Source: Acidimicrobiales bacterium (lineage in GTDB: Bacteria; Actinomycetota; Acidimicrobiia; Acidimicrobiales; JACCXE01). From it: a DNA stretch of 64,000 nucleotides. A program made the translations under genes and the position numbers. The stretch spans positions 30,564 through 94,563 of the forward strand of contig DASZWD010000017.1 of assembly GCA_035546775.1 (NCBI GenBank). Direction: 5' to 3'. Below are positions 1-40,105 of this stretch, in pieces. The notes beneath the pieces were generated by a model, which saw nothing but the letters and a program-made list of their open reading frames with translations, did not search any database and had not been told where the DNA came from. Positions within the stretch are counted from its first letter, which is position 1. Each line of letters begins with the position of its first letter.

Positions 1-625
1 AGTACGTGGCGTTGTAGCGGCGCACGTCGGCCATGAATTCCGACGCGCTGAACTTGCGCCGCAGAGCGACCGCCGCGCCGCTGAGCAACGCCGGGAACAG
101 GTTCGCCAGCAGCGCGTTGCCGTGGAACAGCGGCATCGAGCAGTACAGGACGTCGTCGGGCCCGAACGCCACCGCACTCTGCGACGACGTGCGCGCCGCC
201 CTCCCCTGCGTCATCTGCACCGCCTTGGGCGCCCCGGTCGACCCCGACGTGAAGATCAGGCAATACAGCGAATCGGGCGGCGGAATGCGCCCCGGAGGGG
301 CGCATTCCGCGTACCGGTTCGACTCGGTGTCGATGACCACTGAGCAGTCGGTGTGGGCGATGTCGCGCTCCAACTCGACGGAACTGTGCGTCGGGTTGAG
401 GCCGACGACGACCGCGCCGGCGAGCGCAGCGCCGAACAACGTGAAGACGTACTCCGGGACGTTGTCGAGCAGCACTCCGATGTGTTGCCCGTACGACATC
501 GACGCCGCCCGCGCCGCCGATTCCGCCACGACCTCCCGCCACGTCCACGACTGGTCTTCGAACAGCAGACCGGTGTTGGCGTCCTCGGCGCGGGCGAGAA
601 CGCCCTCCGCGATCGTCTCAGGCAC
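1..625 (-). CDS. Acyl-CoA ligase, FadD1/FadD17-like (3' part runs off the window)
   Basis: Not in the ORF track because it is open at the edge. Manual translation from GTG at 625 gives MPETIAEGVLARAEDANTGLLFEDQSWTW...LIFTSGSTGAPKAV...YCSMPLFHGNA (AMP-binding motif). The start overlaps the end of the upstream ACAD gene. Confidence 0.88.
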   Translation of the reverse strand, partial: MPETIAEGVLARAEDANTGLLFEDQSWTWREVVAESAARAASMSYGQHIGVLLDNVPEYVFTLFGAALAGAVVVGLNPTHSSVELERDIAHTDCSVVIDTESNRYAECAPPGRIPPPDSLYCLIFTSGSTGAPKAVQMTQGRAARTSSQSAVAFGPDDVLYCSMPLFHGNALLANLFPALLSGAAVALRRKFSASEFMADVRRYNATY

Positions 626-7115: not shown

Positions 7116-7162
7116 TTCTGTGAAGGCTCTTCCGTGCAGGGCACGGAAAAGTCTTCACAGAA
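7116..7162. repeat. 47-nt REP-like palindrome (copy A) between convergent genes
   Basis: TTCTGTGAAGGCTCTTCCGTGC-AGG-GCACGGAAAAGTCTTCACAGAA, a 22-bp imperfect stem; 41/47 identical to 39496-39542. Confidence 0.85.
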
Positions 7163-27157: not shown

Positions 27158-28150
27158 GTGGATGTCGACGTGACCGAAGACCAGGAATTCTTCGCGCAGA
27201 CCACGCGCAAGTTCCTCGCTGCCGAAGCACCAATCACCACCGTGCGCGCCCTCGCAGCGAATCCCGACGGGTTCGAACGCGGCTACTGGAAGGCGGCGTG
27301 TGACCTCGGCTGGACCTCCATGCTCGCCCCCGATTCGGGCGGCAGCATGCTCGAACTCGCGATCGTCGCCGAGGAAATGGGACGCGCCGTGGCGCCCGGG
27401 CCCCTCGTGGCCTCGAATGTCGCCGTGCATGCGCTCGCGACCGGTGCCAGCGACGCGCAGCAGGCCAAGTGGTTGCCCGGTTTGCTCAGCGGTGACCTCG
27501 TGGGCGCGTGGGTCCACGAAACCGCCGGCGTCGTCGAAGCCGGTGCCCAGGCCGACGTCTTCGTGGTCACGACCGCCGACGGCGCTCGCCTTGTCGCCGC
27601 CGACGACCCCGCCGTGCACGTGACGCCGTGGGACGGGCTCGACCTGGTGCGGCGCTTCGCGCACGTCTCGATCGACGCCGACGCCGGTGAACCGCTCGGC
27701 GAGGTCGGCGATCTGTTTCCCGTCGCTCTCGTGACGCAGTGCGCCGAGACGTGTGGTGTCGTCGAGCGCGTCTTCGAGATGACCCTCGAGTACATGGACG
27801 ATCGCTTCTCCTTCGGCCGTCCGCTGTCGTCGTATCAGGCGCTGAAGCACCGTGTCGCCGACGACAAGATGCACCTCGAGGCGTGCCACGCCATCACGAC
27901 GGCAGCGGCGTACGCGTTCGCCGAGGGCGCACCCAACGCCGCCGAGTTGGCCGCGGCGGCCAAGGCGTGGATCGGCGCCATCGCCACCGAGATCATCCAG
28001 GACTGTGTGCAACTCCACGGCGGCATCGGCGTCACGTGGGAACACGACATCCACCTCTACTTGCGCCGCGCCACCGTCAACCGGGCGACGTACGGCCCAC
28101 CGGCCGAGTGGCGCGAACACCTCGCCCAGATGATCCTGGGGGCGGCATGA
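27158..28150 (+). CDS. Acyl-CoA dehydrogenase (short partner subunit)
   Basis: RFSFGRPLSSYQALKH, VQLHGGIGVTWEH. Confidence 0.92.
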   Translation: MDVDVTEDQEFFAQTTRKFLAAEAPITTVRALAANPDGFERGYWKAACDLGWTSMLAPDSGGSMLELAIVAEEMGRAVAPGPLVASNVAVHALATGASDAQQAKWLPGLLSGDLVGAWVHETAGVVEAGAQADVFVVTTADGARLVAADDPAVHVTPWDGLDLVRRFAHVSIDADAGEPLGEVGDLFPVALVTQCAETCGVVERVFEMTLEYMDDRFSFGRPLSSYQALKHRVADDKMHLEACHAITTAAAYAFAEGAPNAAELAAAAKAWIGAIATEIIQDCVQLHGGIGVTWEHDIHLYLRRATVNRATYGPPAEWREHLAQMILGAA

Positions 28151-38547: not shown

Positions 38548-39288
38548 TCACGTTATTCCGACGGCGTCGACGAGGCCCCAGGCGAGGGCGGTTTGGGCGT
38601 CGATGGGTTGACGGGAGAGGCCGAGTCGGAGCATGCGCTCGACGCCGATCCGGGCCGTCATCGAAACGGTGCCGCCGGCACCCGGGATGAGACCGAGGCC
38701 GATCTCGGGCAGGGCGATCGTGGTGTCGGGGGCGGCGATCACCCGCGACGCGAACGCCGGCAACTCGATGCCGCTGCCGTAACACGCCCCGTGGATGTGG
38801 AAGGTGACGCGGTCGGCGATCGCGGCGATCGCGGCGCCGATGCTCGTCTGCAACCGGATGACGTGCGCCTCTTCGGGCGAAGGGAACGAACCGAACTCGT
38901 CGAGGTCGCCCCCGGCGCAGAACGACGGGCCGTTGCCGCGAACAATCACGCGCAACGACGCATCGGCGTGGGCGACGGCGAACGCGTCGAGCAGCCCGTC
39001 GCGCACTTCGATGCCAAGGGCATTGCGCCGTTCCGGCCGGTTCAGCGTGACGCGCAACTCGTCACCGACGCGTTCGATCAACACCGCCGGTTCGGGGTTC
39101 GGTTGCCTCGGCTTGATCGGTGTCGCAGCGCGCCACGCCGCGAACTCCGGGCCCGCCTGGAGCGACGAGTACACGCGCGACTCGTCTTCGAGGCTCGAGC
39201 CGCGCATCAAAAGGTCCTCGTAGGCCGCACACGCCCGCGGCCAGCGCCGGCGGGATTCGGCGATGGCGTCGTCTACGGTCACAGGCAC
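38548..39288 (-). CDS. Enoyl-CoA hydratase/isomerase family protein (start uncertain)
   Basis: LNRPERRNAL, FCAGGDL, GACYGSGIEL, LPEIGLGLIPGAGGT. Confidence 0.85.
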   Translation of the reverse strand: MPVTVDDAIAESRRRWPRACAAYEDLLMRGSSLEDESRVYSSLQAGPEFAAWRAATPIKPRQPNPEPAVLIERVGDELRVTLNRPERRNALGIEVRDGLLDAFAVAHADASLRVIVRGNGPSFCAGGDLDEFGSFPSPEEAHVIRLQTSIGAAIAAIADRVTFHIHGACYGSGIELPAFASRVIAAPDTTIALPEIGLGLIPGAGGTVSMTARIGVERMLRLGLSRQPIDAQTALAWGLVDAVGIT

Positions 39289-39289
39289 A

Positions 39290-40105
39290 TTGAACAGCAG
39301 GTTGTTACGCAGCGCCGATGGCTGGGTCGCCGTGACGCTGCCGCGCCCGTCGGACCGAGAGCTGTTGCCGGCGTGGATCGGATGCGGCGAAGACGGCCTC
39401 GCCCACGCCGTCGCCCAGCGCACCGGGGCCGAACTCGTCGCCGGCGCCGAACTCCTCGGCCTCGCGGTGGCCGCCCTCGGCGAGTACACCGGCCCTTCTG
39501 TGAAGGCTTTTCCGTGTGCTGCACGGAAAAGCCTTCACAGAAGCGGCGTGGTGCGGGTGTTGGACCTGTCGTCGCTGTGGGCGGGGCCGTTGGCGGCGCA
39601 TCTGTTGGCGGCCGACGGGGCGATCGTGACGAAGGCCGAGTCGGTCCAGCGGCCCGACAACCTAAAGCTCGGCCGGCCGGACCTCTACGCCGAACTCAAC
39701 GACAACAAGACGCTCGTCACCTTCGACTGGGACGACCCCGACGCGTTGCCGGCACTCATCGCCGCGGCTGACGTCGTCGTGGAATCGGCGCGGCCCCGGG
39801 CGCTCGCCCACCGCGGCATCCAGCCGGAAACCAGCGGCGTGCACGTGTGGGCGTCGATCACCGGCTACGGCCGGGCGTCGAACCGCGTGGCGTTCGGCGA
39901 CGACGCCGCGGTGGCCGGCGGTCTCGTGCGCTACGCGCCCGACGGGACGCCGCGCTTCAAGGGCGACGCCATCGCCGATCCGCTGACGGGACGTGCGGCC
40001 TACGCAGCGATCACCGACGCGCTGAGCGGCGACGACGCCGTGTTGCTCGACATCGCCATGGCGGGAGTCGCCCGCGACGCTGCTACGCGGCTGACCGCAG
40101 GCTGA
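39290..40105 (+). CDS. Family III CoA-transferase-like protein containing an in-frame palindromic repeat (start uncertain)
   Basis: LLRSADGWVAVT N-domain; VRVLDLSSLWAGPL, ADVVVESARPRAL, GDAIADPLTG. Confidence 0.78.
   Translation: MNSRLLRSADGWVAVTLPRPSDRELLPAWIGCGEDGLAHAVAQRTGAELVAGAELLGLAVAALGEYTGPSVKAFPCAARKSLHRSGVVRVLDLSSLWAGPLAAHLLAADGAIVTKAESVQRPDNLKLGRPDLYAELNDNKTLVTFDWDDPDALPALIAAADVVVESARPRALAHRGIQPETSGVHVWASITGYGRASNRVAFGDDAAVAGGLVRYAPDGTPRFKGDAIADPLTGRAAYAAITDALSGDDAVLLDIAMAGVARDAATRLTAG
39495..39543. repeat. 47-nt REP-like palindrome (copy B) inside a coding sequence
   Basis: Perfect 22-bp inverted repeat CTTCTGTGAAGGCTTTTCCGTG-tgctg-CACGGAAAAGCCTTCACAGAAG; 41/47 identical to copy A. 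Confidence 0.88.

What the first reader, a model, noticed from the sequence alone, without database searches (positions are those of the whole stretch)
39495..39543. Palindromic repeat sitting in frame inside a CoA-transferase gene
Seen: the perfect copy of the 47-nt element lies within the open frame and is translated as ...GPSVKAFPCAARKSLHRSG..., just before the VRVLDLSSLWAGP family III signature, so it falls in the inter-domain linker. Established: Rickettsia palindromic elements are the known case of repeats adding peptide to proteins. Inference: an analogous, tolerated coding insertion in an actinobacterium.
Basis: partly seen in the sequence, partly recalled or inferred. Interest (0 to 1): 0.65.

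Follow-up and report, generated by a model that had tools for sequence, protein, structure and literature searches.

The report
Hairpin repeat translated as enzyme linker
A 49-base perfect hairpin repeat scattered through this uncultured Acidimicrobiales genome is read in frame as the linker of a conserved CoA-transferase-like protein. Close relatives carry different hairpin repeats at the same spot, so this is a Rickettsia-style "repeat inside a protein" with an unusual cassette-like turnover.

Summary
Window 39495-39543 is a perfect 22-bp-arm palindrome, in frame in a real gene, directly before the family III CoA-transferase domain.

- **Repeat family:** it is one of 25 copies of a nearly genome-specific family (A). 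Family A is one of at least 10 families (about 100 elements) of 45-55-nt hairpin repeats in this 3.75-Mb MAG.
- **Other coding copies:** six family-A copies lie inside Pfam-supported genes, all in the same stop-free frame (xSVK...LHRS). Families C, D and F also have in-frame copies.
- **Not a simple added insertion:** the protein family always has a variable linker at this position. Ten of 12 close orthologues with DNA in hand code it with a long hairpin of unrelated sequence, two carry a decayed remnant, and none is empty.
- **Block swap:** a sister genome 93% identical in DNA has an unrelated 59-nt block exactly replacing the 59-nt block here. Linker types are incongruent with the gene tree.
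- **Empty sites elsewhere:** they exist for other copies (TPP enzyme, acyl-CoA synthetase, the intergenic copy), so the elements are mobile.
- **Candidate partner enzyme:** no RAYT transposase is present. DUF559 (Vsr-like) nuclease genes are bracketed by cognate palindromes, and the nuclease tree co-varies with palindrome family.

Verdict: an RPE-like, tolerated coding repeat, a new variant of a known kind. The mechanism of movement is inferred, not shown.

The parts
39495..39543 (.). Perfect 49-nt palindrome (family A): 22-bp arms and a TGCTG loop. It is read on the + strand as P-SVKAFPCAARKSLHRS.
   Evidence: 0/100 shuffles; z = -8.66
39490..39548 (.). Extended imperfect palindrome (27-bp stem, 2 mismatches). 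Together with the following GTG it forms the 59-nt block that differs wholesale from the sister genome.
39263..40105 (+). Host gene, 280 aa from ATG 39263 or 271 aa from TTG 39290. It has a conserved ~75-aa N-terminal domain, a 19-aa linker, and the N-terminal half of a family III CoA-transferase fold.
39551..40030 (+). CoA_transf_3 (PF02515) match, residues 97-256 against profile positions 4-181 of 366.
   Evidence: E = 4.3e-23; Foldseek to Rv3272 and SUGCT
39290..39487 (+). Conserved N-terminal domain coding region (LLRSADGW.AVTL.RPSD.ELLPAW.G...LLGL..AALGEYTG). It is in the same frame as the transferase domain in all orthologues.
   Evidence: invariant P36 A37 W38 G40 L58 L64 L65 G66 P78; GC3 0.87 upstream of the element
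7116..7162 (.). Second family-A copy. It is intergenic, 3 nt after the stop of a thiolase-like gene and between convergent genes. The site is empty in the closest genus relative.
270..325 (-). Family-D palindrome (AACCGGTACGCGGAATGCGCCCC tcc GGGGCGCATTCCGC..., outer stem decayed). It is in frame in an AMP-binding acyl-CoA synthetase, in the loop before TSGSTGAPK.

Best explanation
**What it is.** The palindrome is a solo copy of 'family A'. This is a 45-55-nt hairpin repeat that has recently multiplied in this uncultured Acidimicrobiales genome.
- G000 has 25 copies. One congener has 2, and 39 other relatives have none.
- The genome holds at least 10 such families, about 100 elements in all. 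Most sit just after stop codons or between genes.
- A minority survive inside genes. Each of these is stop-free, preserves the frame, and falls in a variable surface loop or inter-domain linker.

**Role in this gene.** Here the element is translated as the linker between a conserved 75-aa N-terminal domain and the Rossmann-type half of a family III CoA-transferase-like protein.
- The linker position is ancestrally long and variable.
- In the clade of close orthologues the linker is coded almost entirely by a palindromic element. Which family codes it differs from genome to genome.
- The resident block has therefore been overwritten repeatedly and length-neutrally. The means could be a site-specific replacement process or very short-patch recombination between lineages. 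This step is inferred.

**Fate and frame.** The hairpin itself does not need to be kept. Two congeners retain the in-frame linker with decayed pairing. Frame choice is shaped by selection. All six family-A copies inside genes use the hydrophilic SVK...LHRS frame, not the Cys-containing FCEG...PSQK frame or the TGA-closed frame.

**Likely mobiliser (inferred).** The best candidate is a DUF559 (Vsr-like PD-(D/E)xK) nuclease gene that is bracketed by two family-A copies, in a REPtron-like arrangement. It is not a RAYT.
For: **Shown**
- Perfect palindrome, not chance.
- 25 copies with an invariant 45-nt core spacing. The family is nearly genome-specific.
- About 120 long hairpins fall into at least 10 families.
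- Six family-A copies have coding GC3 of 0.87-0.95 on both sides and lie within or between Pfam domains. The hosts are AMP-binding, TPP_enzyme_C, CCG, a Liv permease-ATPase fusion, a double CoA_transf_3 and this gene. All use one frame.
- Families C, F and D are also in frame, in HypF, ABC-F, a DivIVA-like protein, a QueG-like protein and a second AMP-binding gene.
- Syntenic orthologues carry unrelated hairpins at the same linker, within a 93-102-nt stretch from LGEY to DLS.
- The sister genome L081 is 93% identical in DNA outside the linker and 97-98% just downstream. It has a non-homologous 59-nt block of equal length.
- With the linker removed, the gene tree places types A, B, 'LVLK..SEP' and 'VVM..ETSQ' each in two separate clades.
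- Decayed hairpins with intact frame occur in G005 and G007.
- Distant homologues have 25-30-aa linkers without a hairpin.
- Empty sites, or other families at the same site, occur in relatives for the TPP enzyme, the acyl-CoA synthetase, the double CoA-transferase and the intergenic copy.
- No Y1/RAYT gene is present.
- DUF559 nuclease genes are bracketed by families A, F, G and E in G000.
- 17 of 21 full-length homologues in the genus have a long palindrome within 200 nt. The background density is 0.087 per kb. The nuclease tree co-varies with the palindrome outer stem.
Against: - No transposition, cleavage or target-site duplication has been demonstrated.
- Among close orthologues of this particular gene no empty site was seen. 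Simple 'insertion' is therefore not directly shown at this locus.
- Equal-length block replacement is not what ordinary MITE or REP insertion predicts. No known mechanism explains it.
- Families B, C and D have no bracketed nuclease gene in this MAG.
- Translation of the linker is inferred from conservation only.
- Gene contexts for the genome-wide census rest on ORF and GC3 heuristics plus Pfam, not on a gene caller.
Confidence: 0.78

Rival explanations
1. The hairpin at this site is a functional structure kept by selection. Examples would be an intragenic attenuator or terminator, an mRNA-processing or stabilising stem, or a translational pause between the two domains. On this view the different sequences in orthologues reflect covariation, not mobile elements.
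For: Ten of 12 close orthologues with DNA in hand have a long hairpin at the same place, with no empty site among them. The fold is extremely stable. Intergenic copies sit in terminator-like positions.
Against: - The hairpins are members of dispersed multi-copy families, not locus-specific sequences.
- G005 and G007 keep the in-frame linker with decayed pairing, at -25 to -32 kcal/mol.
- The 56-59%-identity clade and distant homologues have no hairpin.
- Hairpin position shifts by about 10-12 nt between types A and B.
- Other host genes have empty sites in relatives.
Confidence: 0.1
2. A single ancient hairpin evolved in place. Quasi-palindrome correction (intrastrand template switching) would keep the arms complementary while the sequence drifts, so nothing was replaced.
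For: Arms stay perfectly paired while inner stems vary within families. Related outer stems with different interiors occur in L083, L112, L086 and L087.
Against: - Window and L081 differ by only 3-7% in flanking DNA, yet their 59-nt blocks are unrelated (35% identity).
- The window block is a near-consensus member of a 25-copy family.
- The L081 block resembles family B, which is also dispersed in G000.
- Linker types are incongruent with the gene tree.
Confidence: 0.06
3. The repeat is not really coding. Either the gene starts downstream of the repeat, or the locus is two genes or a pseudogene, or the repeat is a misassembly.
For: GTG and TTG codons lie just after the hairpin. Canonical family III CoA-transferases begin a few residues before the RVLDLS motif (own knowledge; the Pfam match starts at profile position 4).
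Against: - The N-terminal 75 aa are conserved as protein, with invariant residues, across 50-86%-identity orthologues. They are always in the same frame without stops.
- Distant homologues in Streptomyces, Mycobacterium and others match query residues 11-270 as one stretch.
- GC3 is 0.87 upstream of the element.
- AlphaFold packs both parts into one confident model (pLDDT 87).
- The same element at the same position occurs in independent metagenome assemblies (L082 and P0004).
Confidence: 0.03

Closest known systems
Rickettsia palindromic elements (RPE; Ogata et al. 2000, as cited in PMC3733652)
   Same: A dispersed palindromic repeat family whose copies also lie in frame inside many unrelated protein-coding genes. 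The copies add or form short peptide segments at tolerant positions, and no dedicated transposase is known.
   Different: The lineage is different (high-GC Acidimicrobiales). The elements are shorter (45-55 nt) near-perfect hairpins, with many co-resident families. The same linker is occupied by different families in orthologues through equal-length block replacement. A candidate partner nuclease exists. Sequence homology to RPEs was not tested.
Intragenic REPs of the GTAG/CGTC-tagged super-families (Di Nocera, De Gregorio, Rocco 2013, PMC3733652)
   Same: Short palindromic repeats that are mostly extragenic and close to stop codons, with a variable number lying entirely within ORFs of known proteins. 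That paper also notes REPs at about the same site of the coding region in certain genes.
   Different: No GTAG or CGTC tag is visible at the ends of families A-H. Stems are about twice as long. No RAYT is present in the genome. No Actinobacteria are mentioned in that paper.
REP/REPIN-RAYT 'REPtrons' (Bertels and Rainey 2011, PMC3116915; as discussed in PMC3733652)
   Same: An enzyme gene is bracketed by copies of the palindrome that is also scattered through the genome as solo copies, and enzyme lineage and repeat family go together.
   Different: The bracketed gene encodes a ~310-aa protein with a C-terminal DUF559/REase_MTES_1575 (Vsr-like PD-(D/E)xK) domain, not an HUH tyrosine transposase. 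Its activity on the repeats is untested.
PARCELs, palindromic amphipathic repeat coding elements (PMC2996958)
   Same: Palindromic DNA repeats that reside within coding sequence and are translated.
   Different: By that paper's abstract, PARCELs are intragenic tandem-repeat modules of surface proteins that are spread horizontally. The elements here are single short hairpins, mostly intergenic, in cytoplasmic enzymes. No membership test was run.

Membership tests
RPE-like in-frame palindromic repeats (functional class) | Multi-copy dispersed palindromic repeat in one genome | tested here: met
   25 copies of family A. About 100 elements in at least 10 families.
RPE-like in-frame palindromic repeats (functional class) | Copies inside bona fide ORFs, in frame, with conserved protein on both sides | tested here: met
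   Six family-A copies within or between Pfam domains. For this gene.
RPE-like in-frame palindromic repeats (functional class) | Orthologues without the element (empty site) showing it is an insertion | tested here: inconclusive
   Met for the TPP enzyme, the acyl-CoA synthetase and the intergenic copy. Not met for this gene, where close orthologues are always occupied, by other families.
Rickettsia RPE families proper | Sequence homology to RPE-1 to RPE-8 consensus | not tested
   No RPE sequences were on hand. Rfam gave no significant family for the element.
REP / RAYT system | RAYT (Y1 HUH transposase, PF01797) encoded in the genome | tested here: not met
   0 matches in the 97.5%-complete genome. 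The control search rang in 6 of 14 reference genomes.
REP / RAYT system | GTAG or CGTC tetranucleotide tag at one end of the palindrome | tested here: not met
   The ends of family A read (C/G)(A/G)C(T)TTCTGTG...CACAGAAG(T/C)G. Other families start AACTTGTG, AACTGGTC, AATCGGTA or CCGTGTGC.
MITE (miniature inverted-repeat transposable element) | Target-site duplication flanking the element | tested here: inconclusive
   The intergenic copy is flanked by GCG on both sides. The coding copy is flanked by CCC and GCG. The empty site in G005 is not a clean excision footprint.
DUF559-nuclease-bracketed palindromes (REPtron-like; unpublished lead from earlier scan notes) | Nuclease gene bracketed by two copies of the same palindrome family that also occurs as solo copies | tested here: met
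   C37 (A/A), C4 (F'/F), C2 (G/G) and C10 (E/E) in G000. 17 of 21 genus homologues have at least one flanking palindrome and 10 have two.
DUF559-nuclease-bracketed palindromes (REPtron-like; unpublished lead from earlier scan notes) | The nuclease recognises, cuts or moves its cognate palindrome | not testable with these tools
   Only co-variation between nuclease clade and palindrome outer stem is available.
Family III CoA-transferase (host protein) | Full CoA_transf_3 fold (large domain, small domain and C-terminal return) with catalytic Asp | tested here: inconclusive
   Only profile positions 4-181 of 366 match. Foldseek aligns about 205 residues to Rv3272 and SUGCT. NCBIfam scores are far below cut-offs. 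The catalytic Asp was not assigned.

The most novel reading that the evidence does not exclude
The 45-55-nt palindromes may be the non-autonomous partners of AbiEi-like/Vsr (DUF559) nucleases. This would be a REP/RAYT-like symbiosis driven by a PD-(D/E)xK nuclease instead of an HUH transposase.

In this reading, each nuclease lineage cuts hairpin or cruciform sites. Break repair then copies its own palindrome into the cut site. Resident hairpins, including ones that code protein linkers, would thus be overwritten cassette-style and length-neutrally. The CoA-transferase linker would be a long-lived 'landing pad' kept occupied by this process.
Probability: 0.25. Interest if true: 0.85.

Novelty: new variant of a known kind. 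Interest (0 to 1): 0.6.

Why it matters
Repeats read through as protein are textbook only for Rickettsia and a few REP-bearing Proteobacteria. This case differs in several respects.

- **Scope:** the same behaviour is systematic in a free-living, high-GC Acidimicrobiales lineage, involving at least 11 genes and 4 or more repeat families in one genome.
- **A natural experiment:** one inter-domain linker is coded by at least 8 unrelated hairpin cassettes across orthologues. Two genomes only 3-7% apart differ by a clean 59-nt block swap.
- **What the experiment shows:** linker sequence is nearly free while length and frame are constrained. Some process replaces hairpins in place.
- **A testable partner enzyme:** DUF559 nuclease genes are bracketed by cognate palindromes, and the nuclease tree co-varies with palindrome family. 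This gives a concrete candidate for how RAYT-less palindromic repeats spread, which is an open question stated for CGTC REPs in PMC3733652.
- **Practical consequence:** such elements inflate apparent protein divergence and can mislead gene calling and domain-boundary inference in MAGs.

Tried and rejected
- **RAYT/Y1 transposase search in the own genome:** none found, so the REP/RAYT mechanism was set aside.
- **Rfam scan of the element:** only chance-level hits, mir-679 at E = 0.18 and an asRNA at E = 0.93.
- **Metagenome scan with the protein:** one distant locus only.
- **Genome-contig scan:** returned only homologues at 50% identity or less. These were useful as an outgroup for linker length but not as near-orthologues.
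- **P0020 DNA:** could not be fetched because the sample file was too large.
- **Literature searches:** the combination Acidimicrobiia, palindromic, in-frame and coding gave 0 papers. DUF559 plus palindromic repeats gave nothing relevant.
- **Long recombination tract from an A-type donor:** rejected. Similarity to the A-type orthologue L082 is raised only within the block itself. Just downstream, identity to L081 is 97% against 82% to L082.
- **Heuristic 'coding' hairpins:** several flagged this way (C65:47878, C5:11633, C17:20814, C37 minus strand) translate to nonsense or antisense-like proteins and were not counted.
- **Simple regex extraction:** it missed some orthologous loops (L149, L150, L160-162). 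Those sites are reported only where they were read directly.

Full report
**1. Observation**

Window 39495-39543 reads CTTCTGTGAAGGCTTTTCCGTG-TGCTG-CACGGAAAAGCCTTCACAGAAG. It has two perfect 22-nt arms and a 5-nt loop, and none of 100 dinucleotide shuffles gave a match. With two mismatches the palindrome extends to 39490-39548. As RNA, 39470-39570 folds at -66.2 kcal/mol against -36.4 ± 3.4 for shuffles, z = -8.66.

The element lies in the + strand ORF 39263-40105 and is read as ...GEYTGPSVKAFPCAARKSLHRSGVVRVLDLSSLWAGP.... Pfam CoA_transf_3 matches residues 97-256 (profile 4-181 of 366, E = 4e-23), so the domain begins right after the element. The stated coordinates span 49 nt; the 47 nt is the TTCTG...CAGAA part.

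**2. The host gene is real and the element is coding**

- The 280-aa product has orthologues at 50-86% identity covering 93-98% of its length, named 'CoA transferase [Acidimicrobiales bacterium]' where named.
- Alignment shows a conserved ~75-aa N-terminal domain with invariant P36, A37, W38, G40, L58, L64-G66 and P78. A hypervariable stretch of 17-25 aa follows, then the strongly conserved transferase domain. All three are always in one frame.
- Synteny is conserved: ECH-ECH-<gene>-flavodoxin-PAC2-amidase.
- Distant homologues in Streptomyces, Mycobacterium and Proteobacteria match residues ~11-270 as one stretch.
- AlphaFold2 with this alignment gives pLDDT 87 and pTM 0.87, with the linker (residues 79-97) at 77-81.
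- Foldseek aligns ~205 residues to family III CoA-transferases (Rv3272, human SUGCT, Frc).
- 'Gene starts after the repeat', pseudogene and misassembly are therefore unlikely. The same element at the same place is also present in independent metagenome contigs (L082 = P0003, and P0004).

**3. The element is one of a large set of hairpin repeats**

The genome (G000; 3.75 Mb, 75 contigs, 69% GC, 97.5% complete) has 25 family-A copies. All have exactly 45 nt from TCTGTGAAGG to CCTTCACAGA, a conserved outer stem, and a variable but mostly complementary inner stem. Family A is nearly genome-specific: 22 exact-core copies in G000, 2 in one congener (G007), and none in 39 other relatives.

A general hairpin scan finds ~120 hairpins with stems of at least 19 bp. 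About 100 fall into at least 10 families of the same size class. Outer-stem starts include AACTTGTGTTCTGTCGCAC, GAACTGGTCCTGTCCAGCACCGG, AATCGGTACGCGG, AACTGGGCGCGTCAG, CCGTGTGCGGAG and TTTTGGTCCGTCTCAG (the last with a GGGTCTTT loop); the list is not complete. Rfam has no family for the element.

**4. In-frame copies genome-wide**

Six family-A copies lie in long ORFs with coding GC3 (0.87-0.95) on both sides. All are read in the same frame as (P/T/A)S(V/A)K..(P)...R..LHRS. Pfam places them as follows:

- inside AMP-binding (C23);
- inside TPP_enzyme_C, between GFGLPAAMGA and GDGG (C70);
- between the two CCG domains of a LutA-like protein (C42);
- between permease and ATPase modules of a fused Liv transporter (C72);
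- between two CoA_transf_3 modules, again just before RVVDLT..WAGP (C12);
- in this gene.

One reading frame of the element is closed by TGA. Of the two open frames, only SVK...LHRS is used inside genes (6 of 6; two-sided p about 0.03 under equal use).

Other families behave alike. Family C is read as TGPV..R.PVLDRTSS in HypF_C_2, an ABC-F protein and a DivIVA-like protein. Family F is in a QueG-like protein. Family D is in a second AMP-binding gene, at window ~270-325, in the same loop before the SGSTGxPK motif.

**5. Orthologous sites**

(a) This gene. DNA of syntenic orthologues shows a long hairpin at the same linker in every case, within a 93-102-nt stretch from LGEY to DLS. The sequences, however, are unrelated:

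| Locus | Hairpin outer stem / type |
|---|---|
| window, L082 | family A |
| L081 | AACTTGTGTTGTCACGC (B-like) |
| L083, L112 | GTTGTGATGTT.. |
| L084 | CTGGTTCTGAAACGGCGTGC |
| L111 | TCAAGTGACGTTTTTGCACCG |
| L113 | TTCGTGTGTCCCCAGCGG |
| L114 | ATTCTTGCGAGGGTTGTGTGCCC |
| G003 | GTTCTGAGTAGGTCTTC |
| G005, G007 | decayed hairpin, frame intact |

The 56-59%-identity clade has a conserved 25-aa peptide linker without a hairpin. Distant homologues have 25-30-aa linkers without hairpins.

L081 is 93% identical to the window in DNA outside the linker, and 97-98% just downstream. Yet a 59-nt block is replaced by an unrelated 59-nt block, with the hairpin centre shifted ~10 nt.

A tree built without the linker puts window (A) as sister to P0002 (B), with 100/99 support. 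P0003 and P0004 (A) group with P0005 (B). The 'LVLK..SEP' and 'VVM..ETSQ' types also each occur in two clades. This requires repeated replacement with identical boundaries, or very short-patch recombination, or long-lived polymorphism. The data do not decide between these.

(b) Other hosts.
- **TPP enzyme:** empty in G001 and G003. G006 keeps a remnant, TTCTGTGAGAAAG, with the hairpin interior deleted.
- **Acyl-CoA synthetase:** empty in G003, G004 and G009. G001 has a different perfect 23-bp hairpin and G006 a third, decayed one at the same site.
- **Double CoA-transferase linker:** family A in G000, another 28-bp family in G004, a C-like hairpin in G006, and short in G001.
- **Intergenic copy at 7116-7162:** empty in G005, whose flanking protein is 96% identical.

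The elements are therefore gained and lost, and the same permissive loops are colonised repeatedly.

**6. What moves them**

No Y1/RAYT gene is present. The ORF C37:26601-27575 lies exactly between two family-A copies. It encodes a ~320-aa protein whose C-terminus matches REase_MTES_1575/DUF559, a Vsr-like nuclease domain. Its last 17 residues are the downstream element read in the FCEG...PSQK frame.

Homologues in G000 are bracketed by F'/F (C4), G/G (C2) and E/E (C10) copies. Across the 10 genomes of the genus, 17 of 21 full-length homologues have a long palindrome within 200 nt of the gene, and 10 have one on both sides. The background density is 0.087 per kb.

The nuclease tree co-varies with the palindrome outer stem, giving clades TTCTGTG, TTCTGAG, CGTGTGC and TTTTGG. 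G003's linker hairpin belongs to the family that brackets a G003 nuclease gene. This is the REPtron logic with a different enzyme. Activity is untested, and families B, C and D lack a bracketed gene in this MAG.

Earlier notes of this scan had raised the same pairing in other genomes. I treated them as leads and tested the association here.

**7. Comparison with the known**

In-frame palindromic repeats are established for Rickettsia RPEs and for intragenic GTAG/CGTC REPs. The 2013 survey also notes insertions at about the same coding site in some genes (PMC3733652).

Membership of those families fails on the tested features. There is no GTAG or CGTC tag, no RAYT, and the stems are about twice as long. 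RPE homology was not tested. The behaviour nevertheless matches.

My library searches found nothing on such elements in Acidimicrobiia, and nothing linking DUF559 to palindromic repeats. These searches cover open-access text only.

**8. Verdict**

The RPE analogy is supported. The 'insertion adding peptide, with an empty site to be found' picture is replaced by 'permissive linker repeatedly overwritten by hairpin cassettes'.

I rate the case as a new variant of a known kind, with interest 0.6. The nuclease-driven replacement model is the boldest reading not excluded (about 25%).

Noticed in passing
window 270-325 (- strand): A family-D palindrome (inner 14 bp perfect, outer stem decayed) is read in frame as ..NRYAECAPPGRIPPPD.. 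in an AMP-binding acyl-CoA synthetase. It sits in the same structural loop (before TSGSTGAPK) that holds a family-A copy in another synthetase on contig C23.
   Followed up: partly
window 7116-7162: An intergenic family-A copy lies 3 nt after a thiolase-like gene's stop, between convergent genes, flanked by GCG on both sides. The site is empty in the closest congener, G005.
   Followed up: yes
G000 C37:26503-27575 (outside the window): A DUF559/REase_MTES_1575 nuclease gene lies exactly between two family-A palindromes. Its C-terminal 17 residues and stop are supplied by the downstream copy, read in the other open frame (FCEGSPVLNTEFPSQK).
   Followed up: yes
window 39263-40105: The host protein is an unusual family III CoA-transferase relative. 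It has only the N-terminal half of the Pfam domain, preceded by a conserved 75-aa domain whose motif (DGW.A..L......W) recalls the middle part of canonical enzymes. This may be a truncated or permuted architecture. It is conserved from Acidimicrobiia to Streptomyces and Mycobacterium.
   Followed up: partly
L099 (G006 orthologue of the C70 TPP enzyme): The remnant TTCTGTGAGAAAG (peptide TSVRK) shows the hairpin interior deleted between the arms. It leaves a short in-frame scar, which is one way such elements are lost.
   Followed up: partly
G000 family-A copies (e.g. C12:6486, C37:26507, C47:71043): Many copies have arms from two different inner-stem subtypes (AATTTCCG against ATCGCCCG), so the inner stem is mismatched. 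This suggests recombination between subfamilies or a two-arm origin.
   Followed up: no
G000 C70:27169-27219 and 27544-27596: The TPP-enzyme gene carries a family-A copy in frame near its 3' end. A family-D copy lies immediately after its stop codon, 325 nt away.
   Followed up: no
window 38548-39489 (- strand) and 39263 (+ strand): The divergent enoyl-CoA hydratase gene's long ORF overlaps the start region of the CoA-transferase-like gene. In orthologues the two called genes are only ~7 nt apart or overlap, so the shared promoter region must be very compact or the mRNAs leaderless.
   Followed up: no
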